Part shown: one piece after another, positions 17,320-57,810 of the stretch
How the letters are laid out: the number at the start of each line of letters is the position of its first letter
How positions within the stretch are numbered: position 1 is the stretch's first letter
Origin: Bolinopsis microptera
Lineage: Eukaryota
Length of the DNA stretch: 64,000 nucleotides
Assembly: GCF_026151205.1 (NCBI RefSeq)
Contig: NC_087080.1
Coordinates: forward strand, 4,938,797-5,002,796
Reading direction: 5' to 3'
Made by a program: the position numbers and the translations under genes
Notes under the pieces: generated by a model
What the model saw: only the letters and a program-made list of their open reading frames with translations
What the model was told of the DNA's origin: nothing
The model's database searches: none

Positions 17320-19419
17320 GCTAAAGAAACGACGAGAAATAGTTATTTAAGTCACTTTGATTATTATTAAATCTAAAATAGCTTATAGTGAAACAAATTT
17401 TTTTTTAAATCAATCAATTTGAGGTCTTTCGTTGAGGGAGTTGCCACATTTGTTGGTTAACAGTTCTCAACATAACATACACAAAGCTTGACCGCTTTAT
17501 TGACCCGCGTATAGGTACACATCCCAACACTAGTGTGTGACGACATAATGTTGGGCTGCTTCAGGAAGTGTTAGGATGCTTCAGCTCAGTGGAAGCAAGA
17601 GTCCTGATTTCCTGCCACATTGCATCTTAAAGTACCTGGCAGAGTGGTGGATTTTGGGGTCCAGAGATCTTCCCTCTTTAAAATGTTGTCATCCTCCTTT
17701 CAGATATGTGCCAAGAGTGAACAGTCTAGTTACTTAGATGTTTTCTTATATAGGAGGTTGCAACGCTGCGATTCAAGGTTGACAACTAAATAATACCAGA
17801 TGAAACTATTCACCTAAATTTGGTTCTCAACTCTCTAGTTAGCTAGATCCTGCAAAAATTCATTTAGTCCCCAGATAAATTCAACTCTTCTGATAAATGC
17901 TTTCTGCGTGCTGCTCTTAGTTGGAACCAAAACTTCTTCTTCCAACCAATAAAAACACCAGATGGGAATTCCAATCTCACAAGTTGAGAAATGAGAATAC
18001 TCAATGTCCAGATAGATTATAGACTGGTGCTTTGAGAGCGCATACGACTCCTGTGCATAGTCTCTCAGCTCTGTGGACCCAGTAACCACTTCAACTACAT
18101 CTTAACAAAAAGCATTTACTCACTACTTCAACATTTGCACGGGTTTCTAAAGCGCGCACGTACGTTTACTCTTGGCCGTGACATAACGTTTAAATATGAG
18201 GCAGTGACTGTAATTTTCTACAACAATTACCGAATTATCCATCCATCAAGTGATTTACAAAATGACACCTAAACCCACGTGTTCACTTACACAGTACTTG
18301 GCTGAACTGTGGTGTCTAACGTTTGCAGCTAGATTGGACTCTGATATTAGCAAATTTGTATGATTTTTAAAGAAGAAAAGTATTTATCATGCTCTGCAAC
18401 CTGGTAGCGCGGCTGACACAAAACAAAATGTTGCCTGGCTTTTGCATAGCGTAGTAAATAACACGCTCTCTGACAAAAGCCGTCTGGAGGAACTCCGCGA
18501 AATGTTCATTGTAGTCAACGGGCACAAAGAAGCATTATTAGCAATTGTGTCCTTTACCCTCCTACACAATTTGAACATTTTCGTGGCTAACTCATTGAAC
18601 AACATCTGACTTAATATGCATTTAGTATTAAACAATTCAGTGAGTTATCTTTTCATGTACGCGTACGCTGTACATTGTAGTTAGTAAATGCAAACCAAAC
18701 TTTTTCGATCAGCCGCGCGCTGAGCCAGTGTTGCAAGGTAAATTTGTGTATATTTTGTACATTTATCTGTTATCAGTGTAAATTAATTTATTAATTTATC
18801 ACTTGAACACGTATCACAAATTATTTTATTATAATGAAACCATTTCTGTGACATGGTAATCTTGACTTTAAATATTTGAACTAAATATGAATTGATTGTG
18901 GGTATAAAATAAAATTTGTTTTACTTGTTTTACTATTTTACATGCAAGAAATTTTTTTGCAATCACAAGCAAATAAACCCTGAGAAACATTTGCTGTTAC
19001 TAGTACAGCAATCTTTGTTAACTTGCATCTGGTTAACCATCTGGTTAATTGCAAAAAAATTCCTTGCATCAAAAATGCTTTTTGTTGTAGATTTGAACAA
19101 GTTTGCAGTTGATGAATGATAATAATACGATTCAAGGTATGACGATTCAAAATTTGGTAACATTTTTCCAACACAAATACAACCAAACCATATCAATTTA
19201 CAATTTATTGTCGGGATTACATAAAACAAAGTCGATAGAATCAAGTTAATGGTTGATACTCGTAAATATTTGTCCGTGTTGAAAATAGCCCCAAAGAAAA
19301 CCTGAGACGAAGATTGAACTCTAAAATTCCTCGCATCAACAATGCTTTTTGTTATAGATTTGAACAAGTCTGCAGTTGATGAATGATTAAAAATACTGAA
19401 TACAAAGCTACTTAGTACT

Positions 19420-21210
19420 CATAGCACTTTGCCTCGCGCCCATATTTCGAGATGAAAGCTGCACGCGCTACTTTGAAGAAATTAAGACGGGTATCATCCG
19501 TCAATTATGTAGCAAATGGGAGTTTATCTGTAATAGCAAATAGGTGACGTCATGACAATCTGCAGATCGTATACGACATACGAGCTTGAAACAGTTGATA
19601 AAGTTGTAACCCACTTTTCTCCCATTACACATCATTCTATTATATAGCCCAAATTGATAAAAGATTGCACTGCCAGCTGCGCTCGAGATAAAGTAAGTTT
19701 ACAACGTACAACACAAATAATTATAAAACACTGCGGCACGCAGAATTAAACAATTACCTTTCCTGTCCCATGCATCGTTGTAATTCGCAAAAGTGTTATT
19801 CATGTAACTTTGCCTCACGTCGTGTAGGACCGCCGCGCATAAGTGATAAGTGCACGGCGGTATAAAATGACAATGAGGGTCACAACGTAATACAAAGATA
19901 ACCAGCTTATTTCATTGATCATTTATCATTTATGATTTAACATTCTCATTATTTTTATTTAAATTCTTTTTGCTCCGATCTGGCATAATTTAAAACTTTT
20001 TTAAACCTTTGTTGTTTGTGTTTTTAAATTTTGTTTTACTTGTTGGTTTATAACTTACTAAACATTAAAATATGTAGCGCGATGTACTTGTCATTCGTTG
20101 TATGAGCCGCCGCGCACTTGACGGATGTTACTCGTCTAAATTTCTTGATCGAAGTAGCGCGCGCCGCTTTCTTCTCGAAATGCCCGATGGCAAGTGCTAC
20201 GAAGTAGCGCGCACCGGGCCAGACTATAAACAATGGTCAACATAATTGAGTGCCAGAAGCATAATTGAATGCGAGAAGCATAATTGAGGGCGCGGTGCGG
20301 CACAGTAACGCATCGCGCTATAAGTATAAACAGTACTTATTGTAGCGCGATGCACTACTGGGTCGCATCAAATAATGCTTCTCGCAGATCGGCGAGATGC
20401 TAAGGATTGACATCGTGAATCAGGGGTACTTAGTGAAACGAAAAGGCACAATGGGGGTCACGACGTGATACAACGTTACTGGGCGGCGCTCAGCCTTTCA
20501 TTCCGCCAAATCTCTATTCACTATTCGGCCTCAGCTATAATTATAAACATAAATATAATAGCATGGGGTCCCCAATTGACATAGCCATGTGTATACGCGT
20601 ACTGCGTGACGCGCTTGTTTCGGCGGTCGCGCTCTACTGCAAGCGAGAGGGCTCTGGTAAGAGCAAGTTCCCCAATAATTAATATACAACGTTACCTGAG
20701 GACCCCAGGCTATTATGTTCACAATAAAGATTTGGCGGAATGACAGGCTGAGCGCGGCCCAGTAATATACAACGATGCACTATTGGCATTGGGCCGCGCG
20801 GTGCATCAAATAATTTCAGATTTGTTCGCAACCACAGCTTCGTTAGATTAACGCGATTGGTGATGCATCATTAACCATTGGGCCACGCCGAACTGCGAAA
20901 GATTGACACCGTCGATCGATACTTAACTAAAACGTGCGCCAAATTGCTAATATTTAAAAAGTATTCAACGTTACGTTAATAAGCTTTCCCAGAAAACCTT
21001 ACCGGTAGGGGCCTACCTAACTTCGGAAGTAAAAGAAATAGAAAGTTTTGGTTTTCAACTCAATGATCGTCTCGTAAAACTATTGACGGATGTTACTTGT
21101 CTAAATTTCTTCGATGTAGCGCGCGCCGCTTTCTTCTCGAAATGGCCCGATGGCAAGTGCTACGAAGTAGCGCGCGCCGGGCCAGATCATTAACAATGGT
21201 CAAGTAAAAC
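19420..21210. repeat. Cluster 1 of GC-rich modular interspersed repeats (hairpin-forming modules; inverted-repeat pair 20468-20600 / 20695-20770; ~130-bp module at 20110-20245 and 21085-21205)
   Basis: Shared modules recur at 36480-37550 and 55630-57810 on both strands. Examples are gacggatgttactcgtctaaatttcttc-gaagtagcgcgcgccgc...cgaagtagcgcgcgccgggcc, ttactgggcggcgctcagcctttcattccgccaaatc, ggggtcacgacgtgatacaa and tgtcatacgttgtatgac. The GC content is far above the surrounding sequence. Confidence 0.7.
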
Positions 21211-21299
21211 TAAATCTAGTCTAGGTAAACTATAGGTAAAAATATAACCCCAGCTAGCCTACTCCGCTTTCATCTACGGAACCTCCAAAAGATGGAATT

Positions 21300-22682
21300 T
21301 TGTTTGCCGTACAACCCCAGGGATTTCCGACCATCTGAAACTCTTGGAATATTGTGTCAAGGAAGACTTTATACCAGCCATTATGGGCAAAAGGTTTGTG
21401 CCTGATCAAATCAGAAAAATAGCTTCACTTCCTGCAAGAATGGGCGGGCTGAGCATTCCAGACTGCACATCAACAGCAGAGATGGAGTACACTAACTCAG
21501 TAAATGCTACAAAACAGCTCACAGAAGCAGTTTTTCAACAGCTTACTACTTTCCAACTAAACGGAGAACTGCAGCATGACATCATAAGTGAAGTAAAGAA
21601 GCGTAAGGAAGAGCTTTACAAACACCAACGAGAAACTATTACGAATGAGGTATCCCCATCAACACAAAGGCAATTAGAACTCCTTAGTGAAAAAGGAGCA
21701 TCCATTTGGTTATCCACACTCCCTCTAAAAGCATGTGGGTACGTCCTTAACAAACAAGAATTCTTTGATGCCCTCTCACTCAGATATAATCTTACACTGT
21801 CTACAGCTAACAGAAGTCCCCTATGTGTATGTGGAAATCAAAATCATATCAACCATAATCTAACCTGCAAAATCGGAGGCTACGTTTCACTTAGACACAA
21901 TTCACTAAGAGATACAATAGCTGAACTCCTAACCACTGTTTGCAAAGACGTTGAAACAGAACCCCAGCTTCTCTCCGTTCCTCACACACTTGAACTATCT
22001 AATGGAACAAATAGACAGGATGGTGCAAGACTGGACATCAGTGCGAGATCGTTTTGGTCGCCGCTAGACAGGGCATTCACAGATGTAAGGGTACTTCACC
22101 CTCAAGCCCAGTCCAACAGTGACAAGAGCATCTCGCAGATGTACCAATCTCACGAGAAAAGCAAAAAACGTGAGTACAATGACAGAGTCCTCAATATTGA
22201 AAAGGCTACCGACCTTCACGCCACTGGTGTTCAGTACTACAGGAGGAATGGCAACTGAGGCTTCACAGTTCCTAAAACATCTCGCTGAAAAGATCAGCCT
22301 AAAGAAAGGCCAACGGTATTGTGATGTGATGTCATTTGTCAGACGCAGACTGCGTTTTGATCTACTCAGAACCTGTATAATCTCTATCAGGGGGTACAGA
22401 GGTACCAGAACCCTTCCACCCACGGCAATAAGTGATTTGGACCTTAACCTGATCAACACTCTTAAACCCTAAAAGGTCATGGAGTGCTTGTTGGATGGGG
22501 GTTTTAACTGCTTTTTGTTGTGATGTGATTTAGTGGATTTTATATATATTTATTACAAAGGGTTTTATTTTTACCTCAGTTTTTAAATTTGTAACATTTT
22601 TACAGAATTTTTATATAGGGTCATTGCTATATTATGTGTATATTGTTTGAATATTTTATTTAAAAAAAAAAAAAAAAAAAAG
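21300..22682 (+). mobile_element. 5'-truncated non-LTR retrotransposon copy ending in a poly(A) tract; C-terminal domain with a CCHC motif plus PD-(D/E)xK-like (R2-type restriction-like endonuclease) signature
   Basis: ORF 21344-22258 carries CVCGNQNHINHNLTC (C-x-C-x-H-x3-C), then LRHNSLRD, ETEP, ARLDISARSFW and FTDVRVLHP, followed by K-rich sequence. The frame-shifted continuation at 22119-22472 (FSTTGGMATEASQFLKHLAEKISLKKGQRYCDVMSFVRRRLRFDLLRTCIISIRGYRG) aligns with the intact copy at 61364-62104. An A22 tract lies at 22661-22682. Related fragments are at 54617-54985 and 61364-62104. Confidence 0.55.
21344..22472 (+). pseudogene. Frameshifted ORF of the RLE-type LINE copy (two overlapping frames, 21344-22258 and 22119-22472)
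   Basis: Comparison with the minus-strand copy at 61364-62104 shows that one continuous protein is split here by a frameshift. Confidence 0.55.
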
Positions 22683-23234
22683 GTAAAAATATAATATTAA
22701 TCATAAGCTAAAATGTACTAATCTTTGTATTCTAAATGGGGAAAAAGAAGAAACATTGTCAGTCAGTCGAGAAAATTGTCAGTCAGGCTATATGGCAGCT
22801 TTGTAGATGTTGTGACTATGCTAGTAGTGGTCCCAGGCTTGCGACTGGAATTGCGGTGTTAAATCGATTTAATGGTATACCAACGATCCACCTCCCACTT
22901 GTTGTTTGGTACTTAGCATTAATAGTGTTAGCTGTAGCCATTTATAGCAAGAATCTTAAAACTAAAGGGGATGACAAGGAAAAGAGGAAGGAAAAAGAAT
23001 AACGGAACAAACAATTAATTAAAGTATTTATAGGAGCATTAGATATTGTAATTACAAGCTTCAATAATAAATCACTGACTAAAACTTCTAATTAAAATGA
23101 CACTTGGTACGCTCGCCCATTTTCACTGGTCAGTCTGAACTTCGGTTTAGCACGTTGTACACTTATTCACCTAAGTTTCAGAATTTGTTCAGTTTAGCAG
23201 AGTTAGTACCCGTGTTTCAATAAATCAAAAGATA

Positions 23235-25472
23235 TCAGGGGAGTTCTTTAATAATGTTATGGTCATCTAGAATACCGAACTTCCTGAAAACGTTATCATA
23301 TTTCCTCAGACAACGTTTAATGCCTTTAATCAGTCTATCACGGCTATATCCTCTATCAATTAGAATTTTGAATATTTTGTGAAGATGGGAGGTAAAGATA
23401 TCCAATCTAGTGCAAACATTACCATATCTAAGAACTTGACTTGAAAAAACGTTGTAGTCAACCTCGGTTGGGATGTTACTGTGAGGAAATGTAAGGGATA
23501 CAACATGAAAATTAAAATCATCAGTTTTGTTGTACACTGATATTTCTAGTCCTTCTGTGGAAATATTAATATTTAAATCAAGGTAGTTAATGATTTTATT
23601 ATTGGAACCAGCTCGCTCCATCTCCAATGAATTAGGATAAATATCTTTAATCAATTGATGAAAGTAAAGGTAGTTAATAATAGATAAATCGTCAACATAT
23701 CGTTTATTATTGGATAGTATCTTTGCTAATCCCATTTTCTTTTCCTGAAGTAAACGTTTCATATAATTAAATTCCTTTTTGCCAACAGTGAGATCAGCTA
23801 TAGGGGAACTTGAATTCCCACCCATAGGAATACCCTTGGTTTGTATGAATACAATCCCACCGAAGACGACATAAGTGTTATAAATAATAAATTTAACAGC
23901 CTCTTTTAGGTCATCTTGACTAAAGCAGGCATGAGAATCATAGGTTTTATTGGAAAAGAAACATGTATTACTGTCTCTTTTAGAAATACAAATATATCTA
24001 TTACGGTCTGAAAATATTAAATCAACAACTTCATTAATCATATTCTCTACTTCAATCAAGTCTAATCTGGTATAAAGAGTAGTAAAATCATATACTTGTA
24101 TATTATAAACATCGCTATTTTTGATAGCTTCAAGGAATTCACTTGAGGAATCTATGCTCCAAAACATGTTTATACCGCTGTTGTTGTAGATTGCCTCGCA
24201 GTATTTCTTGAAGTATTTCCTCAAAAGTTTCAGACAACAGTTAACTTGGACGTTAAATTGTTTCGTAACGCAAAAACGGGCACCTGCAATGAACCTCGCC
24301 TTGTAAGGGTTCTTATGAAGCTTAGGGTTCCAGAAGATGCGTGCTAGTCGCAAGTTTTTATCTTCAACTTGTACATTAAATCTCTCCTTTAGACTCTCAG
24401 ATATTTTATTGACATAATGAGTCTCGTCTTCGCTACAGGGTTTATATGTATCATTACCTATACATTCTAGAGTATTAGGTTCAAAACCCATTTCATTGAC
24501 AAGAGTTTTTACATAAAACTTTTTACAAATAAATGAAAAATTACCAGAAGCTTTGTCGATACTACAAATAATGTATTTACTTTTCAGCAATTTAAGACTT
24601 CTTTTAACATCATCTTTTTCCAGTGTGTTTTCTTTTATTTCAAATGTTTTAGGAAAGTTTTTCTTGTAATATTCAATACGATTGGAAACTATTGATAACA
24701 CTTTTTCCTTCCAAGCGCTGAACTTTACTTCTTTTTGACAGTACTTTCTACTTTTTGATTTTATAAATTTATCGACAGCTTCGGTAACTGACATATATAT
24801 CTCATCTGGAGATTTAAATGTGGGAATTCTGTATTTACAACCGTAGGAAAGTACTTCCCTAAGTTCAACATTATCAACAATATCTAAATTACCAGTAACT
24901 ACATGTCCATGAGGAGGATAATTGAAAGGGGAGGAGTGACAATCGCATGGACTACCTAAAATAGATTTAATATCAGAAATAGAAAGTTTCTTTAAGAATG
25001 AAGCATAGTTACAAATAGAAAGACTTCTAGGATCATTATACTCATAATAAATCTGTAATGGTGTAAAAGACTGAATCAAAATGGGAAGCAAATCAATGAC
25101 TGAAGTGTCAGAGAAAATAGATTTTAGGTTAAGATTATCAATGAATTTGCAATTAAATGGAACAATTATAAATTCTCTATTACTGGATTCAGATTTGTTC
25201 TGATGGTATTTGGGGGAAAATGTTGAACAGAAAGAGGAACATACGTTGTAAATCAATCCTGAATTATTTTGACTCAAAGAGTAGAGAGTGTCTAAATCTG
25301 ATAAGCTATAACATTTTAATGTTTTGTATATGGAATGTTCTGAAGAGATGTTATCTTTCAGCCTGTTAATATCAGACTCTATGGTATCGAGAGACTTCTT
25401 AGGCTGAACTTTCTTCTTTCCATTCCCTCTGCCACGTTTGTATCGAGCAATCTGTCCACTAAAATAATTCAT
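23235..25472 (-). CDS. Penelope-like element (PLE) reverse transcriptase ORF, 745 aa
   Basis: It has the PLE-type N-terminal DKG-like motif (YIICSIDKASGNFSFICKKFY), the RT motif 1-2 KLHKNPYKARFIAGARFCVTK (compare K-I-H-K-x3-P-x-R-P-I-V-S of PLEs), GIPMGGNSSSPIADL, and the YxDD box RYVDDLSII. Confidence 0.6.
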   Translation of the reverse strand: MNYFSGQIARYKRGRGNGKKKVQPKKSLDTIESDINRLKDNISSEHSIYKTLKCYSLSDLDTLYSLSQNNSGLIYNVCSSFCSTFSPKYHQNKSESSNREFIIVPFNCKFIDNLNLKSIFSDTSVIDLLPILIQSFTPLQIYYEYNDPRSLSICNYASFLKKLSISDIKSILGSPCDCHSSPFNYPPHGHVVTGNLDIVDNVELREVLSYGCKYRIPTFKSPDEIYMSVTEAVDKFIKSKSRKYCQKEVKFSAWKEKVLSIVSNRIEYYKKNFPKTFEIKENTLEKDDVKRSLKLLKSKYIICSIDKASGNFSFICKKFYVKTLVNEMGFEPNTLECIGNDTYKPCSEDETHYVNKISESLKERFNVQVEDKNLRLARIFWNPKLHKNPYKARFIAGARFCVTKQFNVQVNCCLKLLRKYFKKYCEAIYNNSGINMFWSIDSSSEFLEAIKNSDVYNIQVYDFTTLYTRLDLIEVENMINEVVDLIFSDRNRYICISKRDSNTCFFSNKTYDSHACFSQDDLKEAVKFIIYNTYVVFGGIVFIQTKGIPMGGNSSSPIADLTVGKKEFNYMKRLLQEKKMGLAKILSNNKRYVDDLSIINYLYFHQLIKDIYPNSLEMERAGSNNKIINYLDLNINISTEGLEISVYNKTDDFNFHVVSLTFPHSNIPTEVDYNVFSSQVLRYGNVCTRLDIFTSHLHKIFKILIDRGYSRDRLIKGIKRCLRKYDNVFRKFGILDDHNIIKELP

Positions 25473-25526
25473 AACCCGATCTTGGGAGATGTTGCCCGTT
25501 CCTTTCTTCTTGTCATTAAGAATGAC

Positions 25527-25595
25527 ATGTAGTTACTGGTAATTTAGATATTGTTGATAATGTTGAACTTAGGGAAGTACTTTCCTACGGTTGTC
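25527..25595. repeat. 69-bp inverted duplicate of an internal RT-ORF segment (24838-24905), placed between the GIY-YIG remnant and the RT ORF
   Basis: cattaagaatgacatgtagttactggtaatttagatattgttgataatgttgaacttagggaagtactttcctacggttg is the exact reverse complement of 24838-24905. Confidence 0.8.
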
Positions 25596-25910
25596 ATTAA
25601 GACCAAGAGGGAATGCTGTCCCAAGCTTCTCTATCCAGTAATCCTCCAGGAGAAGTAAATCATTTTTGACATCGGTGGACATGTCAGAATCAACATAATC
25701 TACAATCTGTATGGAAGCATCTGAGAAGACGTGACCAGGAATATTAAAATGTTCATATAAAAATGTGGATGATTTGGCTTTGACACAATTTCTGTGGCCA
25801 TTGACTCTTTTATGAAGTGGTTGAGTTGTTTCTCCAACATATTGTTTTTTACAGGTAGAACAGGTAATAACATAAATAACATTATTAGTTTTACAATTAA
25901 ATATAAAATT
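25545..25910 (-). other. GIY-YIG endonuclease domain remnant lying upstream (N-terminal side) of the PLE RT, in a different frame (Naiad-like permuted PLE, decayed)
   Basis: Minus-strand translation gives KFIFGHTNFIFNCKTNNVIYVITCSTCKKQYVGETTQPLHKRVNGHRNCVKAKSSTFLYEHFNIPGHVFSDASIQIVDYVDSDMSTDVKNDLLLLEDYWIEKLGTAFPLGLNDN. The classic GIY...YIG...R...H...E..W core is all present. There is no Met, a stop lies upstream, and the frame differs from the RT. Confidence 0.65.
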
Positions 25911-26216
25911 TGTATGTCCAAAGATAAACTTTCAACACTACTATATAACAAATAATTTGAGGACCCCCAGTGGGAACTAATGCCTCGGTAAATGTAACGA
26001 CCATTACAGGTTGTATGTCAATGTAAATGGTTGTTGCATGATAAAGTTATCTTAAAGACATCCTAAGGACTATCAGACATCGATTTTTAAAGCAGTTTAC
26101 TCCCATCTATCACCTAAAGATTATCAGACATCATTTATCCTTATCCTCCGGAGTGCTACAAAGGTACTGTAATCATTAACTAAATTTCGAACAGTAGCAT
26201 CTTTTTGTGATAAACT

Positions 26217-27880
26217 ATGTCTAGAATACCAGAACTTGGCTCAAGAGATTACAATCTGAGATATCGAGGGAATGCTGTTAAATTCCCCAGTAATGGCTCT
26301 CGTCCTACTGATAAATGTTCAAATTGTTTAACTCTATTAAGAGAGAATGATCGTCTTCGTCGGCAAATTTCTATTCTCTATAAACAATTATCAGAAAGTG
26401 ACAGTGCACTCAAAGTTCCCCTCAGCAATAGTTCACTTGTCTCTGTGTTGCCCCAGGTACCTGATCACTGTGAACATTCTATCAAAGTTCCCCTCAGTAA
26501 TAGCTCATCCTCGCATCTTGTTTCTGAGTTAACCCAAGAGCTATCCAAATTAGCAGAAGACAGTGAACATTCAGCAGAAATTATCAATTCGGAAAATCCC
26601 AAACACTCTGTAAATGGTGTCAATGGTGTGACCAACTCTATCATTCCATACCAAGATTTGAGTCGAGGAGTTTTTCAGTTTGTTGACACTGCCAAGTTAG
26701 ATATAGAAACCCACTATACTCATGACTTTGAGAATAGGACAGTTGCATATTATGGGGACTTTCCCTACGCTTACAATGGAGGCTTTCATAACACAAGGCG
26801 TCAAGGCCAGTAGCAGACAATCCCTACCTAAAGTCTATTTTAGAACGATTACGCTCACAGTTCCCAAAGTTGAAATTCAATAGTGCTATGATTACCAAGT
26901 ATAGAAATGGTCAGCAAGGAATTCCCTTTCACTCGGATGACGAGAGGTCAATTTCACCAGGCTCCATGATCTCCACCATCTCTTTAGGGGCTACTAGAGT
27001 CCTAAGCTTCAGATCCAAACTTAGAGCTCATATTGCTGACCTTACCCTCTCCCATGGTGACATAATGAATATGACCAGACAATCCCAGACCAGCTTTGAA
27101 CACAGCCTCATCCAGGACAAGTCTGAAACCATGAGAATAAGCATTACTCTGCGCCTAATTGATGGCAGCGCAACCATATCTACTCTGTCTGATGTTTCCA
27201 GTCAAGTTAAGAACACTGAACCCTCGGCCCCTAAGACTAGATCAATAGAACATTCTGGTAAATCTTTGTGTGTCTACATTAGCTCTAGTATGTTCTCCAA
27301 ATTAGAGGGAGAAAAGCTATCGTCCAAACAACATGAGGCACATGTATTCAGCTACCCTGGTGCCACAGCCAATGCAATCAATGAACGGTTTCAATCAGAT
27401 GTAAGAAAAGACACTCTTAATACCAATAATGTGAAAAGCATTGTACTTATGTGTGGTACAAATGACGTGGACTCTATCCTGAACAGCCCTCGCAACATGA
27501 GGACTAAACTTCTGTGCCCTGATAGTTTTTCTGGTGATGCTAGAGCTCTTGACTTTACAAACAATTGTATTGAAAAACTTGTACTTTTCCTTCACAAGTG
27601 GGCACCTGGAGCTGATATTAAAATTGTTAACTTATTACCTCGGGAGAGTTTCTCCAGAAACAAGGTTATAACAGATATCAATGGATGTATATCAAATCTG
27701 CAAAGAAAATACACCTATGTAAAACTGCTCTCAACCGAGACAAATCGTTTCTTGTTTAGTGATAAGAAAGGCTTTAGAAAATCGTCATTTTTTAGTAGTT
27801 ATGGAGAGGATAATGTCCATCTCAATGATTATGGCATAGTTAAACTAGCAAGGCACTTGAAGTATCATGCACACCATTAG
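26217..27880 (+). pseudogene. LINE ORF1 (interrupted at 26814-26869): coiled-coil N-terminus plus AlkB-like 2OG-Fe(II) dioxygenase domain plus SGNH/GDSL esterase domain
   Basis: AlkB N-part in ORF 26217-26813: RTVAYYGDFPYAYNGGFH. AlkB core in ORF 26870-27880: FNSAMITKYRNGQQGIPFHSDDE...ISTISLGATRVLSFRS...LTLSHGDIMNMTRQSQTSFEHSL...RISITLRLI (HxD...H, a second His, R-x-S-x-T-x-R). SGNH blocks: VYISSSM (I), SYPGATANAI (II), LMCGTNDV (III), DNVHLNDYG (V). Esterase ORF1s are known from CR1-like LINEs. The two ORFs are separated by stops and a frameshift. Confidence 0.6.
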
Positions 27881-28837: not shown

Positions 28838-30403
28838 ATGACAAATTTTAATAATGCAGCTGATAGGTTTCACAACCTCTGCATTGGTCACTGTAACATT
28901 CAAGGAGGGCTTCTTAATTTAGCTAAAAGTAATGAACTTTCCCAACTTATTAGAGATCATAAATTAGACATACTTTCCCTAAATGACATGAATCTTAATG
29001 ATACTATTGACACAGACACCATAAATATTCCTTCCTCCTTCAACCTTATGCGATGCGACAGGCCAAACAGTTCTAGTGGTGGTTGTGGCTTAATGATAAA
29101 CAAAAAACTAGCTTACACAGAATTAGTTATGGATAGTAAGCTTGATAACATTGAAGCATTATGGGTGAAGCTTAAGAATAGCAAGATCAATGTTTGCTGC
29201 TTCTATCGCTCTGGAAATTATTGCAGTGTTGATAACTTTATTGAGTACATTCATTTTTGCATGAAAAAATTGAATGGGAAAAAGGTTATCTGGATTGGGG
29301 ATATAAACATTGACCAGAATAATATCTCATCCACCCAGTACAAAAAATTAGATATGACCTTGAGATGTTACAATCTAGTTCAAACCATTCAAGGGATAAC
29401 TAGAGTTGCTAAACGTGGAGACAATTTTACCCAGACTACTATTGATGTAATATTCACTAACTGTTATGCAGATTTTGTTCAATCTTCTGTTCTTGATGAA
29501 CGTATTGGGGATCATCAAGCTATTATGTGTGAGATAGATTGTAAAGTACCTATAGCTCCTAAATTTGAAAAGGTTGAAATTAGAAATCATTGTAAACGTA
29601 ATGTTAAACAATTCTTAGACTATCTAGATACCTGTTCTGATTACAGTCCACTATTGGAAAGTACAGATGTTGAAGCTATCACTGCTGGCCTTTGTCATCA
29701 TATTGAACAGGCATATGCAACCTTCTTCCCTTGCAAGACCATAGAAAGGCATGAAAAGTTCATACATAAACCTTCTACTGAACTTTTAAATGCCATTAAT
29801 CATACACATTTTCTTCTAAAGAAATTCCGTAAAAAGAAGGATAAGAGAGACAATGGAAATTGCAATAAATGTGGTACATGTAGCAAATGTATAAAGTGTA
29901 ATGAGGCCTGGGATTGCTACAAGATTCAGAGAAATATTAGAAATAAATTAGCTAAAACCTGCAAAAAGGCTAATGTAATCGATGATCTACAAGTTAAAAG
30001 TGCCAAGAATGATCTTAAAGGGATATGGAAAACTATCAAACTGGCATCAAATATGACCCCTGGTACAAATAATTGTCAAACTATCAATGAGAATGATCCT
30101 GAGCTATTTAACTTTCATTTTGCAAATGTTGGATCAAGATTACAAAATCAGGCGCCCAATATTGAAAGAGTTAGTTTTACTGATTTTTTACCTCCTAGAA
30201 CTTCTAACATCTCATTTGATAGATTCCAAGAAATAAATGAAACTGATATCCTAATGTATGTCGAAACGCTCAAGAATGACAAGGCCTCATATGACGATGT
30301 GCCTCTATTTTTACTTAAGCAAGCTGTACCACACATAGTTGAACCACTGACCCATATTGTCAATTTGAGCCTTAATACAGGTGTTGTACCAACCCGTTTG
30401 TAA
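28838..30403 (+). CDS. LINE ORF2, N-terminal part: apurinic/apyrimidinic-type endonuclease (EEP) domain plus linker
   Basis: IGHCNIQGGLLNLAKSNELSQLIRDHKLDILSLNDMNL...IWIGDINIDQNN...TRVAKRGDNFTQTTIDVIFTN are the exo-endo-phosphatase motifs of LINE APE endonucleases. Confidence 0.7.
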   Translation: MTNFNNAADRFHNLCIGHCNIQGGLLNLAKSNELSQLIRDHKLDILSLNDMNLNDTIDTDTINIPSSFNLMRCDRPNSSSGGCGLMINKKLAYTELVMDSKLDNIEALWVKLKNSKINVCCFYRSGNYCSVDNFIEYIHFCMKKLNGKKVIWIGDINIDQNNISSTQYKKLDMTLRCYNLVQTIQGITRVAKRGDNFTQTTIDVIFTNCYADFVQSSVLDERIGDHQAIMCEIDCKVPIAPKFEKVEIRNHCKRNVKQFLDYLDTCSDYSPLLESTDVEAITAGLCHHIEQAYATFFPCKTIERHEKFIHKPSTELLNAINHTHFLLKKFRKKKDKRDNGNCNKCGTCSKCIKCNEAWDCYKIQRNIRNKLAKTCKKANVIDDLQVKSAKNDLKGIWKTIKLASNMTPGTNNCQTINENDPELFNFHFANVGSRLQNQAPNIERVSFTDFLPPRTSNISFDRFQEINETDILMYVETLKNDKASYDDVPLFLLKQAVPHIVEPLTHIVNLSLNTGVVPTRL

Positions 30404-31814
30404 AAAAGCTAGAGTAACTCCCATCCATAAGGCAGGAATGAAAGATGATCCTAATAATTACAGGCCAATATCCATCCTTCCACTTATAGGAAAACTTATA
30501 GAATACTTTGTCGGCAAGCAACTCACTGATTACATGGAAGAGAACAAATTTTTCATCCGGCATCAATATGGCTTTCGGAAAAATCACTCCACAACTTATT
30601 TGATGTACGATCTGATGGACGAAATATATATGAGTAAATCTAAGTCTTATAAACCAGGAATCATCTTTCTTGATCTTAAGAAGGCCTTTGACACAGTGAA
30701 TCATGAAATATTGCTTCAAAAATTGGCATATTATGGAATTGGTGGCATTGCTTTAACCTGGTTTAAGAACTTCTTATCTTGTAGATATCAATGCACAAGG
30801 ATCAATGGCAAAATAAGCTCATTTTTAGAAGTTCTGAGTGGTGTACCACAAGGAAGCATCATTGGGCCTATATTATTTAGTATCTTCATAAATGACATCA
30901 TTTATGCCTGTAACCTATCTAAGCCCTTTCTATTTGCAGATGATGGTGCACTATTCTTTGATCAAACCTGCAGAAGCACATTTATAAACATGAAAATAGA
31001 ACTTATGACAATCTTTAAATGGCTCAGTGTTAATAAATTATCACTCAATGAAAAGAAGACTGAATTCCTATTGTTTGATTCTGTTGATCAACATGATGAA
31101 TTAACCATTGAATGTAATGAGGTAACTTTCACAATCAAGGAGTGCAAAGAGACAAAATATCTTGGCCTCATTCTAGATAGTAAATTAAACTTCAAAAGCC
31201 ATGTAGATTATATTATTAGGAAGGTCATGAAGAGAATTGGTGCCATGTATAGAAGCAAAGCACTGCTACCCATTAAATATAGGAAAATGTTTGCCAATGC
31301 ACTCATGTTGCCACAATTCGATTATTTAGACACGATCTATTGTAGAGCTGGCAAGACAAAACTTGCTGAACTTGACACTCTGTACAAAAAGGTAGCCAAA
31401 ATAGCTCTCAACGTTCCACAAACAGAGAGCAGCCTTAATGTTTATAGAGACATGAAATGGTTACCACTCCATCTTAGACGACAACTCCATCTGTCTAATT
31501 ATATGTTTAGAATCATCCATGACAATTGTCCTACAAACTTTATGAACAAATTTAGTTACATATCAGGAGGTAGTAGGAGCGGCGAAAGCTGCAACCTATA
31601 TGTTAATAGATCAACATCACATAAAAACTTTCAATACTTGGGGGCAAAATGTTGGAATAATGTTCCAACAGATCTACGAAATCTGCCCGATGTTAAAAGC
31701 TTAAGTGATTCGTATAAGAAACAGCTACTCTCATCTATAACAACAGACCCTAATTACACCGTCGACAATTCATATGACAAATTTTACACTGCAATCATAG
31801 TCGACGATAACTAA
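30381..31814 (+). CDS. LINE ORF2, reverse transcriptase part (frame differs from the APE part; overlap 30381-30403)
   Basis: YRPISILPLIGKLIEY, GFRKNHSTT, IFLDLKKAFDTVNHEILL, SGVPQGSIIGPILFSIFIND and FADDGALFF are the LINE RT motifs 1-5 (CR1/L2-like). The APE-to-RT frame change indicates a decayed copy or a frameshift. Confidence 0.75.
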   Translation: MLYQPVCKKARVTPIHKAGMKDDPNNYRPISILPLIGKLIEYFVGKQLTDYMEENKFFIRHQYGFRKNHSTTYLMYDLMDEIYMSKSKSYKPGIIFLDLKKAFDTVNHEILLQKLAYYGIGGIALTWFKNFLSCRYQCTRINGKISSFLEVLSGVPQGSIIGPILFSIFINDIIYACNLSKPFLFADDGALFFDQTCRSTFINMKIELMTIFKWLSVNKLSLNEKKTEFLLFDSVDQHDELTIECNEVTFTIKECKETKYLGLILDSKLNFKSHVDYIIRKVMKRIGAMYRSKALLPIKYRKMFANALMLPQFDYLDTIYCRAGKTKLAELDTLYKKVAKIALNVPQTESSLNVYRDMKWLPLHLRRQLHLSNYMFRIIHDNCPTNFMNKFSYISGGSRSGESCNLYVNRSTSHKNFQYLGAKCWNNVPTDLRNLPDVKSLSDSYKKQLLSSITTDPNYTVDNSYDKFYTAIIVDDN

Positions 31815-36479: not shown

Positions 36480-37550
36480 CATGGCTGAATTTAGATTGTA
36501 ATTCACGCGTGCGATCAGTGAACATTACATCACGCGTGATATTGATAAACGACCACCACTAGTAACACTGTTGATTGACGATGTCAAATCCTTCGCAGCT
36601 CGGCGCGGCCCAGTAGTGCATCGCGCTACAAGTAACACTGCTAGCCGGTAACTTTTGCAGGGTTTGGCTTACCTGAGGACCCCAGGCTATTATGTTTATA
36701 AAGATTCGGCGGAATGACAGGCTGAGCGCCGCCCAGTAAGGTTTGGCTTTTTGTGTTATTATATTATTTACTTGCTGTCTGTTGTATTGGAACTCGAAAA
36801 TTTTAGCTTTGTAGCTTACTAACACGCGCGCTGAGTTCCTTCGCAACTTATCACGTCCATTTGCCATTGTTAATGGATTTACCCGGCGCGCGCTACTTAG
36901 ACTAAATTTAGACGAGTATCATTTAACATTTTGTAAGTTTATAACTTACCAAGCTAGACGTGAATACGAGCGCCGAGTTGGACGGTCGCGATTAGATTTT
37001 GACCGTTCTGTGTACATGCTTATAGTTATACGTTTTATTATATGAGTAAGCTGTGGTATTGTGAATGTAAGCTATACCAATGTATTTTACGCTGATTTCA
37101 AATAAGACCTTACTTGTCATACGTTGTAGACCTGCCGCGGACGAGTGCGCGGAGCTAGCTGTATCGTGGCTTTCGCCACGATACTACCACTTAGTGAAAC
37201 ACTGAAACGGCAAGCTCCTTGTTACCTGATCTTGAGGGGACGTATGACACCTCGTTAACCCAATCAATGTCTGGAAGGCTGCACATTTTCATATGCCAAA
37301 AACTTAAGATTCTCGTTGTGCGAGATGACGATAAATACTTACCATTAAAATCAAAATCAGCATTTACAAATGTTCACAGAACGGTCGAAATCTAATTGCA
37401 ACCGAGTTGGACTCGAGTATCACCCGTGAACCGTTAACTTAACGGGTGATACTCGTAAAATATCTGTTCCATATATTGGGACCGTCGACGAGTCCAACTC
37501 GGCGCGCGTCCTGGTAGGTTGTAAACCTACAAACCGTTAACTAAAATAGT
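36480..37550. repeat. Cluster 2 of the GC-rich modular repeats (shares modules with 19420-21210 and 55630-57810; internal inverted repeat 36960-37010 / 37375-37425)
   Basis: cgatgtcaaatccttcgcagctcggcgcggcccagtagtgcatcgcgc and ggaccccaggctattatg...cggcggaatgacaggctgagcgccgcccagtaa. Also gtcatacgttgtagacctgccgcggacgagtgcgcgg and cgtcgacgagtccaactcggcgcgcg (compare 56430-56470). Confidence 0.65.
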
Positions 37551-50400: not shown

Positions 50401-50600
50401 GTTGACCGACTAATTTGTTGCGGGTGAAAAAATCAGTCAAAACTGTAAAATTTCGGTCCTGGAAATTTCATCTTCAAAAACTGAAAATGGGGCAAAGATT
50501 GGGACAATATGATTTTGCAATTTTATTCGGGATTTTGACTCCCAGTACCTCAATTTGGTTTCATACCATCACCAATTAACATACTAATTATATTCACTGT
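41495..50600. repeat. Higher-order satellite DNA, ~25 tandem copies of a 366-bp unit made of two diverged ~183-bp monomers (A/B dimer)
   Basis: The landmark gaaaatgggacagaagtttg recurs at 41505, 41871, 42237 and 42603 (period 366). Half-units A (gaaaatgggacagaagtttgaaaatacaac...) and B (gaaaatgggacagagattgggacaatatg...) share conserved blocks. Unit variants (ccgaccgag / ccgatcgag / cagaacgag; gtgtcat / gtgccat) indicate subfamilies. Confidence 0.95.
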
Positions 50601-55629: not shown

Positions 55630-57810
55630 AGAAACGGGTTGTTTTGCCGCCTTCGGCGGTCACGCGCTACTGCAAGCGAGAGGGCTCTGATTAGAGCAAT
55701 CACGCGCACACTATCTTCCAATTAGCATCCGCACTTTTTCAGTGCCCAGTTAGTAAACTTTTGTCATACGTTGTATGACCCACCGCGTGCATGAGTGCGT
55801 GGCCCGGCGCCCCGTAGAATTAACGCTACAGGGGTAACGACAATGGGGTTTACGACGTGATATACAAGTAAACTTATAGCTATGTGAAGTTTTGTCATAC
55901 GTTGTATGACCCGCTGCGCACGAGTGCTCGGCTACACTGTATCGTAAAACATCTACAGTGAAACGACATTTGGGGTCACGACGTGATACAAACCTTGATA
56001 TGAGCCGCGCGTTCAGCATTGAACGCAGTAATTTTAATTAATATTTAAATTTCATATTCCAAGTGTTGATTGTTGTTAAAAATAAAATCTCCTGTCACTT
56101 TCACAATTTACAAAAAACAAACATAATATATGCAGGTACGCAGATAAATCCAAATTGCAAATGTTATTATTGTGATTGCACCAGCCCACATCAAATTTGT
56201 CATACGTTGTATGACCCGCCGTGCACGAGTGCGCGGCTCCCCCTGTATCGTCAGGACGATAAAGGTGAAACAACCGTGGGGGTCACAACGTGATACAACA
56301 TCAAATATGGGCGAAATTTTTATTTTAATCGATTTTATTTTCATCGTTCTGACTTTTGTATAGCATGTTTATTTGTTTTTGTTTACGAGTTTAACGGATG
56401 ATACTAATTATAAAATATTTGTTTCAAAGACCGTCGACGAGTCCAACTATGCGCGCGTTTTGGTAAGTTATAAACCTATAATTTGCAATTACGAGTAAGC
56501 TGTGGTATTAATTTGACGGATGTTACTCGTCTAAATTTCTTCGAAGTAGCGCGCGCCGCTTCCTTCTCGAAATGTTGCCCGATGGCAAGTGCTACGAAGT
56601 AGCGCGCGCCGGGCCAGATCATTAACAATGGTCAAGTATTAATTGACGATGTCAATTCATCGCAGCTTGGCGAGGCCAAGTAGCAAATCGCTTTTTCCTC
56701 ACAAACACTCGACATGAAAACAGATCTGTTCACCGTTTGTACATTTTAGTTCGATCTTCCGTCTATCTAATATTGAGAAAAGAAAATTTCGAATTTATTA
56801 CACAATCAATTATAAGGAAAACAAATTTTAGGAAAACAAATTTAAATTTTGGTATTTATTAGTAACAATCAAAACATATCATATCATAAAAATAAAGCCG
56901 CGCGTTGGTTGACTGCCTCAGTAAGGTGAATAATATAACATATAAGCTCGAAGGTGCCCTGTGCATTTACAGAAAGTCACGCGGCGATCACATGATCATG
57001 AGGACCTGTGAGCGCCAAATTTAATTTAAATTTTCTAGAAATCATACATCACTACAAGTTACTCATGCTTTTTTTAAATTTTTATAGGAGTGTAGATTGT
57101 CAGGTATTTCATTCATTCATACTTTGTCGGTTTAAAGCTGTATATTTAGAACTCACTATTGTTTAAACTATGAAAGCAGAACGTAGGTAATGGACAATAT
57201 ACCGACGACAATACCAAGGACCCGAGTGCCACAATGACTTTTCCGGATCCGTTTTTACCGAGGGCTTATCCACCAGTTACTCATGCTGCATGTATAGTCT
57301 GGTAATATTTATTCGTTTTATTCTATAGCAAGCATTCTGTAAATTGAAGTGTCGTATTTATTATAAAAGAGCCAGCCAACCTCCGCATTATAATCTTTTG
57401 TGTGCCAAGTTCGTTTGTAAAATCTTATCATATAATTGATTCACGATGTCAATCCTTCGCAGCTCGGTGAGGCACAGTGGTGCATCTCGCCGATCTACCG
57501 AAGGATTGATGCATAACAACAAGACACGCGCCAAAGACGCGCAGTTTACTGAGTGATGCCCACGATTTCTTTAAACACATTGATGTCATTATAATTTAGC
57601 GTGACCGGTGATAGTACGAGAATGGAAATGTGGTTGCGAGAAGCATTATTTGATGCGCGCGCGACCCAGTAGTGCATTGCGCTACAAATCATATAATAAA
57701 ATTGATCCAATTATATAAGATGAACGGTATATATCATAGCTCATCGTTACTGGGCCGCGCTCAGCCTGTCATTCCGCCAAATCTATATTAATGAACATAA
57801 TAGCCTGGGG
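55630..57810. repeat. Cluster 3 of GC-rich modular repeats, including 3 tandem-ish copies of a ~110-bp hairpin module (55768-55870, 55882-55990, 56196-56300) and the ~130-bp module at 56512-56640
   Basis: The module consensus is tgtcatacgttgtatgacccgccgcgcacgagtgcgcgg...tgtatcgt...gtgaaac...ggggtcacgacgtgatacaa. The start and end elements are palindromic. Copies are also present in clusters 1 and 2. Confidence 0.7.

What the first reader, a model, noticed from the sequence alone, without database searches (positions are those of the whole stretch)
19420..21210. GC-rich hairpin-forming modular repeats at three loci, two of them adjacent to fragments of an RLE-type (site-specific-like) LINE
The same ~70-130-bp GC-rich modules recur on both strands at 19.4-21.2 kb, 36.5-37.6 kb and 55.6-57.8 kb, in an otherwise AT-rich region. 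Two modules contain short palindromes (tgtcatac g ttgtatgac; tcacg a cgtga) and so could form structured RNAs or hairpin DNA. Cluster 1 abuts the 5' end of the RLE-LINE fragment at 21300, and cluster 3 lies close to the fragment at 54600-55100. LINEs with CCHC plus PD-(D/E)xK endonucleases (R2, NeSL, CRE and related clades) are typically site-specific for multicopy RNA genes or simple repeats. So these modules could be a target array (an unidentified small-RNA gene family), or composite MITE-like elements. I could not match them to U1-U6, 5S or SL RNA by eye.
Basis: partly seen in the sequence, partly recalled or inferred. Interest (0 to 1): 0.65.

Follow-up and report, generated by a model that had tools for sequence, protein, structure and literature searches.

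The report
Tiny hairpin-ended transposons nested in clusters
The GC-rich repeats are at least six families of very short (about 60-125 bp) mobile DNA elements that duplicate 9 bp of their target and pile up in and beside one another; they are not small-RNA genes and not a landing pad for the neighbouring LINE, though their ends share an unusual conserved stem-loop shape.

Summary
The same GC-rich modules recur on both strands, and only at 19.4-21.2, 36.5-37.6 and 55.6-57.85 kb.

The LINE-target / small-RNA-gene reading is not supported:
- Rfam and tRNA scans find nothing.
- The adjacent LINE (21248-22680) has a poly-A tail and its own 14-bp target-site duplication (TSD) in AT-rich DNA, outside any module.
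- That LINE is absent from all module-bearing loci fetched elsewhere.

The modules resolve into six families (A-F) of non-coding elements, mostly 61-125 bp. Each is bounded by 5'-TT...AA-3' and flanked by a 9-bp TSD (10 perfect cases in the window). For family D in marine metagenomes, 20 of 29 unique copies have 7-9-bp TSDs, against 0 of 812 mismatched flank pairs. They behave as MITE-like non-autonomous DNA transposons.

Two features are unusual:
- All ten termini of families A-E carry a 7-bp stem / 3-nt loop exactly 2 nt from the end. Sequences differ but pairing is kept (90% of cells paired versus 53% in shuffles).
- New copies often insert on or next to the termini of resident copies. This would explain the nests, which look like CpG islands.

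No transposase was found, so the superfamily (Mutator/Foldback-like or Merlin-like) is inferred from TSD length only. The host is probably a bryozoan.

The parts
19419..19506 (-). Family A copy, 3'-truncated, about 80% identical to the full copies
19806..19890 (+). Old, diverged family B-like copy
   Evidence: by eye, plus a weak BLAST match
20088..20117 (+). Family B 5' part (B6), cut off inside its second hairpin by the insertion of A1
20118..20240 (+). Family A copy (A1), 123 bp, inserted into B6; no TSD recognisable
20270..20422 (.). Two family C-related pieces in inverted orientation
20420..20474 (+). Family B 3' half (B7), ending ...GTCACGACGTGATACAA. Its terminus is the target of the D1 and D2 insertions.
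20476..20682 (+). Family D long variant (D1), flanked by GATACAACG / TATACAACG (8/9); carries F1 nested inside
   Evidence: (I7)
20576..20666 (+). Family F copy (F1), 91 bp, nested in the 3' stem-loop of D1; TSD GGTCCCCAA / GTTCCCCAA (8/9)
20692..20765 (-). Family D copy (D2), 74 bp; perfect 9-bp TSD TATACAACG at 20683-20691 and 20766-20774, the same target 9-mer as D1
21083..21203 (+). Family A copy (A2), 121 bp; perfect 9-bp TSD GTAAAACTA at 21074-21082 and 21204-21212
21248..22680 (+). 5'-truncated, poly-A-tailed LINE copy with CCHC and nuclease-like motifs; own 14-bp TSD AGGTAAAAATATAA at 21234-21247 and 22681-22694. Not part of the module system; listed because the finding links it to the modules.
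36571..36631 (+). Family C copy (C1), 61 bp; perfect 9-bp TSD GTAACACTG
36670..36739 (-). Family D copy (D3); 9-bp TSD GGTTTGGCT at 36661-36669 and 36740-36748 (the terminal T/A is ambiguous)
36864..36925 (-). Internally deleted family A fragment
37114..37250 (+). Family B variant (B4) with a true inverted repeat, TTGTCATACGT...ACGTATGACA; folds with z = -4.1
37360..37438 (-). 5' end of an older E-like element (E-like resident). Its first 8 nt plus 1 flanking nt form the target of E1.
   Evidence: read by eye
37439..37532 (+). Family E copy (E1), 94 bp; perfect 9-bp TSD ACCGTTAAC; folds with z = -5.0
55637..55699 (+). Family F copy (F2); 5' end not resolved
55761..55866 (+). Family B copy (B1); 9-bp TSD AGTAAACTT at 55752-55760 and 55867-55875
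55892..55990 (+). Family B copy (B2); no TSD recognisable
56197..56297 (+). Family B copy (B3), 101 bp; perfect 9-bp TSD ACATCAAAT; folds with z = -3.3
56391..56481 (+). Family E copy (E2), older (77% identical to E1)
56513..56635 (+). Family A copy (A3); TSD GTATTAAT(T), 9/9 if the first T is counted with the target. Inserted onto the 5' terminus of C2.
56639..56691 (+). Family C copy (C2), the resident element whose terminus was hit by A3
57436..57687 (+). Long family C variant, 252 bp, with family C termini; perfect 9-bp TSD ATCATATAA
57747..57821 (+). Family D copy (D4), 75 bp; perfect 9-bp TSD AGCTCATCG

Best explanation
The three clusters are nests of at least six families (A-F) of ultra-short, non-coding, non-autonomous DNA transposons (MITE-like).

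Shown:
- Each element begins 5'-TT and ends AA-3'.
- In families A-E, a 7-bp stem with a 3-nt loop sits exactly 2 nt inside each end.
- The interior is GC- and CpG-rich and holds further small hairpins.
- Each integration duplicates 9 bp of target.
- The elements are dispersed in the host genome, including the untranslated regions of cDNA-like contigs. They also sit in and beside each other, several times exactly on a resident element's terminus.

Inferred:
- They are moved in trans by a DDE-type transposase that was not found. It would make 9-bp staggered cuts, as in the Mutator/Foldback or Merlin superfamilies.
- That enzyme reads the TT/AA ends plus the shape of the terminal stem-loop rather than a fixed sequence.
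- Its affinity for element ends biases new insertions toward resident ends. This would build the clusters.

The neighbouring LINE is an unrelated, independent insertion.
For: TSDs:
- Ten window copies from five families have perfect 9-bp flanking duplications, and two more match 8/9.
- In family D, 20 of 29 unique copies from metagenomes and the window have 7-9-bp TSDs (8 perfect 9-mers). None of 812 mismatched flank pairs do, and no TSD is longer than 9.
- Family E copies from other contigs also have 8-9-bp TSDs. Family F has a 9-bp TSD in L014.

Reconstructed empty sites:
- Removing E plus one TSD copy in L040 restores an intact D terminus.
- The same holds for A3 in C2 and F1 in D1.

Dispersal:
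- 51 metagenome loci match the D core, about 45 of them eukaryote-like, with unrelated flanks.

Terminal structure:
- The last 22 nt of A, C, D and E fold to the same dot-bracket, '...(((((((...)))))))..'.
- Five of 12 termini are perfect 7/7 in that register. Only 0.16% of background 17-mers are.
- Across ten termini, 90% of cells pair versus 53% in shuffles (0/500). There are 29 double-sided changes versus 9.5 (0/500). Slid registers give 26-37%.
- A detector that uses only structure plus a 9-bp repeat finds 19 elements in about 300 kb and none in shuffles.

Clustering elsewhere:
- D-selected contigs also carry A, B, C, E and F.
- Independently chosen E-selected loci L060-L062 are dense nests of all six families.

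End-targeting:
- Three (regex) to five (by eye) of 35 TSD-flanked insertions span a resident terminus, against 1.8% of random sites.

No coding capacity, no Rfam family and no tRNA.
Against: - No transposase or autonomous relative was found in the window or in the roughly 300 kb of related DNA examined. The superfamily and the DDE mechanism rest on TSD length and on the inverted symmetry of the ends.
- Conventional terminal inverted repeats are weak: about 12-13 of 19 positions match in A and B.
- Nine of 29 D copies, and A1 and B2 in the window, show no TSD.
- Within family D there is no compensatory change because the copies are too alike. The structural argument therefore rests on comparison between families and between the two ends of an element.
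- Family F fits the 7-3-7 register poorly.
- End-targeting rests on few events, and most D insertions are in unique DNA.
- D target sites are not more hairpin-prone than random sites (p = 0.37).
Confidence: 0.75

Rival explanations
1. The modules are an array of small structured-RNA genes, or another multicopy target, into which a site-specific RLE-type LINE inserts.
For: A LINE fragment with a CCHC-like and a PD-(D/E)xK-like motif lies 35 bp from cluster 1, and another lies about 0.5 kb from cluster 3. Both have their 5' side facing the cluster. The modules fold well: z = -3.3 to -5.0 for B3, B4 and E.
Against: - The LINE has its own 14-bp TSD and a poly-A tail in AT-rich non-module DNA.
- The three LINE fragments are only 37-47% identical to each other.
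- There is no LINE match in any module-bearing locus.
- There are no Rfam or tRNA hits.
- Every module has its own 9-bp TSD, which marks it as an insertion rather than a resident gene.
Confidence: 0.02
2. The modules are SINE-like retroposons copied through RNA by a LINE or Penelope-like reverse transcriptase that recognises the 3' stem-loop. The TSD would then come from target-primed reverse transcription.
For: - LINEs and a Penelope-like element are abundant in the window.
- A 3' stem-loop followed by a short tail is how 'stringent' LINE/SINE pairs are recognised (own knowledge).
- D is present in cDNA-like contigs.
- The wobble pairs lean toward one strand, but the test was inconclusive.
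Against: - TSD length is tightly 9 (8) bp and never longer.
- There is no A-rich or microsatellite tail, and no pol III head (no tRNA or Rfam match).
- Both ends are precise and mirror each other structurally.
- No 5'-truncated series was seen.
- No LINE or Penelope-like element in the window shares sequence with any module.
- D lies in both orientations relative to the host ORFs.
Confidence: 0.07
3. The modules are single-strand (HUH / tyrosine-nuclease) transposons of the Helitron/Helentron or IS200/IS605 kind, whose ends are recognised as DNA hairpins.
For: - The terminal stem-loops are conserved in shape but not in sequence. That is the recognition logic of IS200/IS605 and REP/RAYT systems (own knowledge).
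- One head-to-tail D-D dimer without a spacer occurs at L021 1436-1590.
Against: - Those families make no target-site duplication and insert at a fixed short motif (own knowledge). Here a 9-bp TSD of varied sequence flanks most copies.
- No Rep or helicase ORF was found.
Confidence: 0.05
4. The clusters are segmental duplications or composite units copied as blocks, not independent insertions.
For: - L060 678-1278 and L061 6531-7131 are 97% identical over 608 bp that include nested E copies. Some nests are therefore duplicated secondarily.
- The D1...D2 pair could also be read as one 290-bp unit with 43-bp inverted ends.
Against: The order, orientation and flanks of the modules differ between the three window clusters. 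Homology stops at the module ends, and individual modules carry their own TSDs.
Confidence: 0.03

Closest known systems
MITEs of the Mutator/Foldback kind, e.g. Tm1 of root-knot nematodes (PMC3169594)
   Same: Both are non-coding, MITE-like derivatives. Tm1 has TSDs of 8-10 bp, most often 9, with no target consensus, and nested copies occur.
   Different: Tm1 has long composite inverted repeats built of 14-bp tandem units and a known MULE-like transposase. The elements here are 61-125 bp, have almost no conventional inverted repeat, carry a 17-nt stem-loop at each end, and have no known transposase.
Merlin superfamily MITEs (IS1016/IS1595-related; own knowledge, not checked here)
   Same: The TSD is 8 or 9 bp, they occur in diverse invertebrates, and many copies are short and non-autonomous.
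   Different: Merlin ends are ordinary inverted repeats of 20 bp or more. No DDE_Tnp_IS1595 ORF was found here.
Nested MITEs of maize and rice (Jiang & Wessler 2001; own knowledge)
   Same: MITEs insert into other MITEs more often than chance would give, building compound clusters.
   Different: Those are AT-rich Tourist/Stowaway elements with TA or TAA targets. Here the elements are GC/CpG-rich, the TSD is 9 bp, and several hits fall exactly on a resident element's terminus.
IS200/IS605 elements and REP/BIME-RAYT repeats of bacteria (own knowledge)
   Same: The ends are defined by small imperfect hairpins whose shape is kept while the sequence varies. BIMEs are modular, GC-rich, occur on both strands and are clustered.
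   Different: They are prokaryotic, use an HUH tyrosine nuclease on single strands, and make no TSD. This is an analogy of recognition logic only.
IR-targeting by bacterial IS30-type elements and P-element homing (own knowledge)
   Same: A transposase's affinity for element ends biases new insertions to resident ends.
   Different: The elements and hosts are different. Here the bias is inferred from 3-5 events.
Enigmatic ~90-bp palindromic insertion-polymorphic motifs and ~300-bp MITEs in the chaetognath Spadella (PMC2997562)
   Same: They are very short, palindrome-containing, insertion-polymorphic elements of unknown mechanism in a marine invertebrate.
   Different: The Spadella motif is described as its own reverse complement. 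No sequence was available for comparison, and the host is different.

Membership tests
MITE / non-autonomous class II DNA transposon | Short, non-coding, multicopy, dispersed in unrelated flanks | tested here: met
   The elements are 61-252 bp with no ORF. There are 29 unique D copies with unrelated flanks.
MITE / non-autonomous class II DNA transposon | Target-site duplication of fixed length at both ends | tested here: met
   A 9-bp TSD is found in families A-F (8/9 in the window F copy, 9/9 in L014). The control gives 0 of 812.
MITE / non-autonomous class II DNA transposon | Terminal inverted repeats | tested here: inconclusive
   Only TT...AA plus about 12-13 of 19 matching positions in A and B. 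The ends mirror each other in structure (stem-loop) more than in sequence. B4 has a true 10-11-nt inverted repeat.
MITE / non-autonomous class II DNA transposon | An autonomous relative with the same ends that encodes a transposase | tested here: inconclusive
   None was found in the window or in about 300 kb of related loci. The source genome could not be searched.
Mutator/MULE-Foldback superfamily | TSD of 9 bp (range 8-11) | tested here: met
   compare Tm1
Mutator/MULE-Foldback superfamily | MULE transposase; long or composite inverted repeats | tested here: not met
   No MULE domain appears in any ORF scanned. The ends are 19-nt stem-loop units, not long repeats.
Merlin superfamily | TSD of 8-9 bp | tested here: met
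   (8 perfect 9-mers; 6 perfect 8-mers, of which 5 are also compatible with 9)
Merlin superfamily | IS1595-type DDE transposase | not testable with these tools
   The source genome is not searchable. None was seen in the ORFs scanned.
Known structured-RNA families (snRNA, 5S, SL RNA, tRNA, ribozymes) | Match to a curated covariance model | tested here: not met
   Rfam at gathering score gives 0 hits in the window. At E<=1 there are three sub-threshold matches (E 0.3-0.9) in cluster 1 and none in clusters 2 and 3. ARAGORN finds 0 tRNAs.
Target site of a site-specific RLE LINE (R2/NeSL/CRE-like) | LINE junctions recur at one fixed position inside the target unit | tested here: not met
   The LINE TSD lies in AT-rich non-module DNA. 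The LINE is absent from all module-bearing loci elsewhere.
SINE | Pol III-type head, LINE-related or A-rich 3' tail, variable TSD, 5' truncation | tested here: not met
   There is no tRNA, 5S or 7SL match. There is no tail and the TSD is fixed. No sequence is shared with any LINE in the window.
Helitron/Helentron or IS200/IS605-type HUH elements | No TSD; insertion at a fixed short motif | tested here: not met
   9-bp TSDs of varied sequence are present.

The most novel reading that the evidence does not exclude
These elements may represent a eukaryotic DNA-transposon system whose ends are recognised as stem-loops (cruciform or single-stranded DNA) rather than by sequence. One enzyme, making a 9-bp staggered cut, could then mobilise several sequence-unrelated families. 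Because it binds ends, it would also direct new copies onto the ends of resident copies, building self-reinforcing, CpG-island-like nests.
Probability: 0.2. Interest if true: 0.7.

Novelty: new variant of a known kind. Interest (0 to 1): 0.4.

Why it matters
As MITEs they are ordinary genome furniture. The practical gain is a correct annotation: they are not RNA genes and not a LINE target.

Two things go beyond that. First, the ends of five sequence-unrelated families keep the same 7-3-7 stem-loop at the same distance from the tip through compensatory changes. This hints that the mobilising enzyme reads DNA shape, which is known for bacterial single-strand transposons but not for eukaryotic elements that make a TSD. 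Second, self-targeting of element ends would give a simple mechanism for how GC/CpG-rich islands of nested repeats arise in an AT-rich invertebrate genome.

The structural signature (TT, stem-loop ... stem-loop, AA, plus a 9-bp repeat) is specific enough to annotate the class automatically: 19 hits against 0 in shuffles.

Tried and rejected
1. Rfam at gathering score on the whole window and at E<=1 on all three clusters; tRNA scan. Result: no hits above threshold.
2. Interrupted-LINE idea, that cluster 1 sits inside a LINE whose 5' half lies upstream. No RT-like ORF lies upstream, and the LINE has its own TSD.
3. Preference of D for hairpin-forming targets. Reconstructed empty sites fold no better than random sites (p = 0.37), so this was rejected.
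4. Within-family covariation in D. None was found because the copies are too similar.
5. Strand asymmetry of folding (RNA or single-strand intermediate). Inconclusive, because element orientation is arbitrary and the number of cases is small.
6. Search for an autonomous partner. Pfam scans of all long ORFs in the window, the D loci and L060-L061 found only RT, APE, GIY-YIG and host genes. D 5' halves without 3' halves did not lead to coding elements.
7. Viral-contig scans for D and A cores gave 0 hits.
8. Exact look-up of a window ORF to find the source contig: not on record.
9. Naming the organism from accession numbers or from a possible spliced leader failed. The leader-like sequence is not the calanoid copepod SL.
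10. De novo search for further families with the TT...AA plus 9-bp signature found none beyond A-F in the DNA available.
Full report
**1. The observation**

The window is eukaryotic and rich in transposable elements. It is about 37% GC and contains LINE RT/APE ORFs, a Penelope-like element and a 366-bp satellite. BLAST of each reported region against the whole window shows that the GC-rich modules recur on both strands at 74-96% identity. They occur only inside 19.4-21.2, 36.5-37.6 and 55.6-57.85 kb; there is no copy in the remaining ~58 kb.

**2. What the modules are**

Read with their flanks, the modules resolve into six families.

| Family | Typical size | Ends |
|---|---|---|
| A | ~122 bp | TTGACGGATG...CAATGGTCAA |
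| B | ~101-107 bp | TTGTCATACG...CGTGATACA(A) |
| C | 61 bp (one 252-bp variant) | TTGATTGACG...GCGCTACAA |
| D | ~75 bp | TTACTGGGCC...CCCAGGTAA |
| E | ~91-94 bp | TTAACGGGTG...AACCTACAA |
| F | ~91 bp | ends ...AGAGCAA |

Ten window copies from five families are flanked by perfect 9-bp direct repeats of unrelated sequence:
- A2 GTAAAACTA
- A3 GTATTAATT
- B1 AGTAAACTT
- B3 ACATCAAAT
- C1 GTAACACTG
- C-long ATCATATAA
- D2 TATACAACG
- D3 GGTTTGGCT
- D4 AGCTCATCG
- E1 ACCGTTAAC

Two more (D1, F1) match 8/9.

One scan of JGI metagenome contigs with a 19-specified-base core of D returned 51 loci, about 45 of them eukaryote-like, mostly North Sea and other marine samples. Of 29 unique full-length D copies, 20 carry 7-9-bp target-site duplications (TSDs):
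- 8 are perfect 9-mers.
- 6 are perfect 8-mers, and 5 of these are equally compatible with 9 because the terminal A is ambiguous.
- None is longer than 9.
- None of 812 mismatched left/right flank pairs shows any such repeat.

Family E copies from other contigs show the same pattern, and F has a 9-bp TSD in L014. Removing an element plus one TSD copy restores the host sequence. In L040 this recreates an intact D terminus from TTTACCTGG[E]TTTACCTGGGGACCCC. These are therefore mobile, non-coding insertions that make a 9-bp duplication, which is MITE-like behaviour.

**3. The LINE link**

The LINE next to cluster 1 spans 21248-22680. It is 5'-truncated, ends in poly-A, and is flanked by its own perfect 14-bp TSD AGGTAAAAATATAA (21234-21247 and 22681-22694). 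That target lies in AT-rich DNA, outside module A2 and A2's intact TSD.

The other two LINE fragments (54638-55066 and 61634-62173, both on the minus strand) share only 37% and 47% protein identity with it. They lie about 0.5 kb and 4 kb from cluster 3. The LINE ORF has no tblastn match in any of the module-bearing loci retrieved elsewhere. No module shares sequence with any LINE or Penelope-like element in the window. The adjacency is that of neighbours in a TE-rich region.

**4. The RNA-gene idea**

- Rfam finds nothing at gathering score in the window.
- At E<=1 it gives three sub-threshold matches (E 0.3-0.9) in cluster 1 and none in clusters 2 and 3.
- ARAGORN finds no tRNA.
- D does occur in transcripts, but passively. 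It lies in the untranslated regions, in either orientation, of contigs carrying complete intron-free ORFs: a sugar transporter, sphingolipid desaturase, Rab GTPase and a PWWP protein. I take these contigs to be cDNA-derived; that is an inference.

**5. The unusual part: the ends**

Folding the last 22 nt of A, C, D and E gives the same dot-bracket, '...(((((((...)))))))..'. That is a 7-bp stem, a 3-nt loop and then exactly two bases, AA. The 5' ends of B, D and E mirror it.

In that single register, all ten termini of A-E have at least 5 of 7 positions paired, and five are perfect. Only 0.16% of background 17-mers are perfect (binomial P about 1e-11).

The ten termini align without gaps. Only the final AA is invariant, yet:
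- 90% of stem cells pair, against 53% in shuffles (0 of 500 shuffles reach it).
- 29 cells have changes on both sides, against 9.5 expected (0 of 500).
- Sliding the register gives 26-37%.

The two ends of a single element differ by compensatory changes. In B the ends are GGGTCAC/GTGATAC and GTCATAC/GTATGAC. In A they are GATCATT/AATGGTC and GACGAGT/ATCCGTC.

A detector that uses only TT, the two stem-loops, AA and a 9-bp repeat with at most one mismatch finds 19 elements in about 300 kb. All belong to A, C, D or E, and there are none in shuffled controls.

Within family D there is no covariation, because the copies are too similar. Family F has a different geometry: a 5-bp stem and 4-nt loop before the AA.

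My inference is that the shape of the end, together with TT/AA and a mostly G...C closing pair, is what is selected, rather than a fixed sequence. It is not shown whether this shape acts in duplex DNA (a palindromic binding site or cruciform) or in a single strand. A test of strand asymmetry was inconclusive.

**6. Why they cluster**

Each nest is a series of separate insertions. Order, orientation and flanks differ between nests, and each element has its own TSD.

Several insertions sit exactly on a resident element's terminus:
- E1 on an older E-like end (TSD = 1 flanking nt + first 8 nt of the resident).
- E on a D end in L040 (same geometry).
- A3 on the 5' end of C2.
- D1 and D2 both in the same 9-mer at the 3' end of B7, leaving three copies of ATACAACG.
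- F1 inside the 3' stem-loop of D1.

An automated count gives 3 of 35 TSD-flanked insertions spanning a terminus, or 5 by eye, against 1.8% of random sites. This is an enrichment, not a rule.

Clustering is not peculiar to this window. D-selected contigs also hold A, B, C, E and F. Three loci chosen independently by an E motif are dense nests of all six families. A preference for hairpin-forming targets was tested and rejected.

My explanation is that a transposase with affinity for element ends biases integration toward resident ends. This is an inference by analogy with IR-targeting of IS30-type elements.

**7. Mechanism and family**

A fixed 9-bp TSD, precise and mirror-symmetric ends, and the absence of tails and 5' truncation point to a DDE-type transposase acting in trans. 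The TSD length fits two superfamilies:
- Mutator/Foldback: Tm1 has 8-10 bp, mostly 9 (PMC3169594).
- Merlin: 8-9 bp (own knowledge).

No transposase was found in the window or in any related locus. Superfamily membership is therefore not established. The hairpin-defined ends work like those of IS200/IS605 or REP elements, but the TSD excludes membership of those families.

**8. Source organism**

- The Penelope-like ORF has 98% identical relatives in Tara, ENA and Logan marine assemblies.
- A desaturase on a D-bearing contig has no named relative above about 61% identity; the best are molluscs, hemichordates and crustaceans.
- The E motif hits two contigs filed under a 'Candidatus Endobugula sp.' MAG. 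Those stretches have low coding density, an RT ORF, and a 1.57-kb segment 94% identical to contig L001, whose Penelope-like element is 97% identical to the window's copy. They are host DNA.
- Endobugula is the symbiont of bugulid bryozoans (PMC11480708). The host is therefore probably a bryozoan; this is an inference.

**9. Verdict**

The LINE-target and RNA-gene interpretation is wrong, and the 'MITE-like' alternative is right. Most of this is ordinary: new MITE families in an unannotated invertebrate genome. The conserved stem-loop geometry of the termini across unrelated families, and the end-on-end nesting, make it a new variant worth a modest follow-up.

Noticed in passing
window 41648-50739: A 366-bp satellite in 25 tandem copies, 97-100% identical, with a degenerate last unit.
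   Followed up: no
window 23235-25931 (-): A Penelope-like retroelement. The RT ORF 23235-25472 has 98% identical relatives in Tara, ENA and Logan marine assemblies. A GIY-YIG ORF (25572-25931) lies upstream on the same strand, so the nuclease is N-terminal, as in the permuted Naiad/Chlamys-type elements.
   Followed up: partly
window 26870-27880 (+): An ORF combining a 2OG-Fe(II) oxygenase (AlkB-like) domain with a weak GDSL-lipase-like match. It lies just upstream of LINE APE and RT ORFs at 28838-31814.
   Followed up: no
window 6886-7621: A 358-nt inverted repeat, 98% complementary, with a 20-nt spacer (I1).
   Followed up: no
L028 1-11 and L053 16-26: Two unrelated cDNA-like contigs both carry ...AATAATTTGAG just upstream of the ORF. 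This could be the 3' end of a spliced leader. It differs from the calanoid copepod SL.
   Followed up: partly
L060, L061 (CBDDBR010000011.1, 2.36 Mb) and L062 (CBDDBR010000004.1): Contigs of a GTDB species-representative MAG labelled 'Candidatus Endobugula sp.' look like animal host DNA. They have few ORFs, an RT ORF, and 94% identity over 1.57 kb to contig L001, which shares a 97% identical Penelope-like element with the window. This is probably host contamination of the bin.
   Followed up: partly
L021 1436-1590: Two D copies abut head to tail with no spacer and no intervening TSD. This is a dimer that simple insertion does not explain.
   Followed up: no
window 19.4-21.2, 36.5-37.6, 55.6-57.85 kb: The nests have CpG o/e of about 1.4, against 0.68 in the rest of the window. 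They are CpG-island-like patches created by insertions.
   Followed up: partly
L002 50-1290: A tandem array with a period of about 46 bp (TTGACATTTTGGGCCGGGTTTTAGC...) in a related contig. It turned up as noise in the TSD scan.
   Followed up: no
L060 678-1278 and L061 6531-7131: A 608-bp segment including nested E copies is duplicated at 97% identity within one 2.36-Mb contig. Some nests are therefore copied secondarily as blocks.
   Followed up: no
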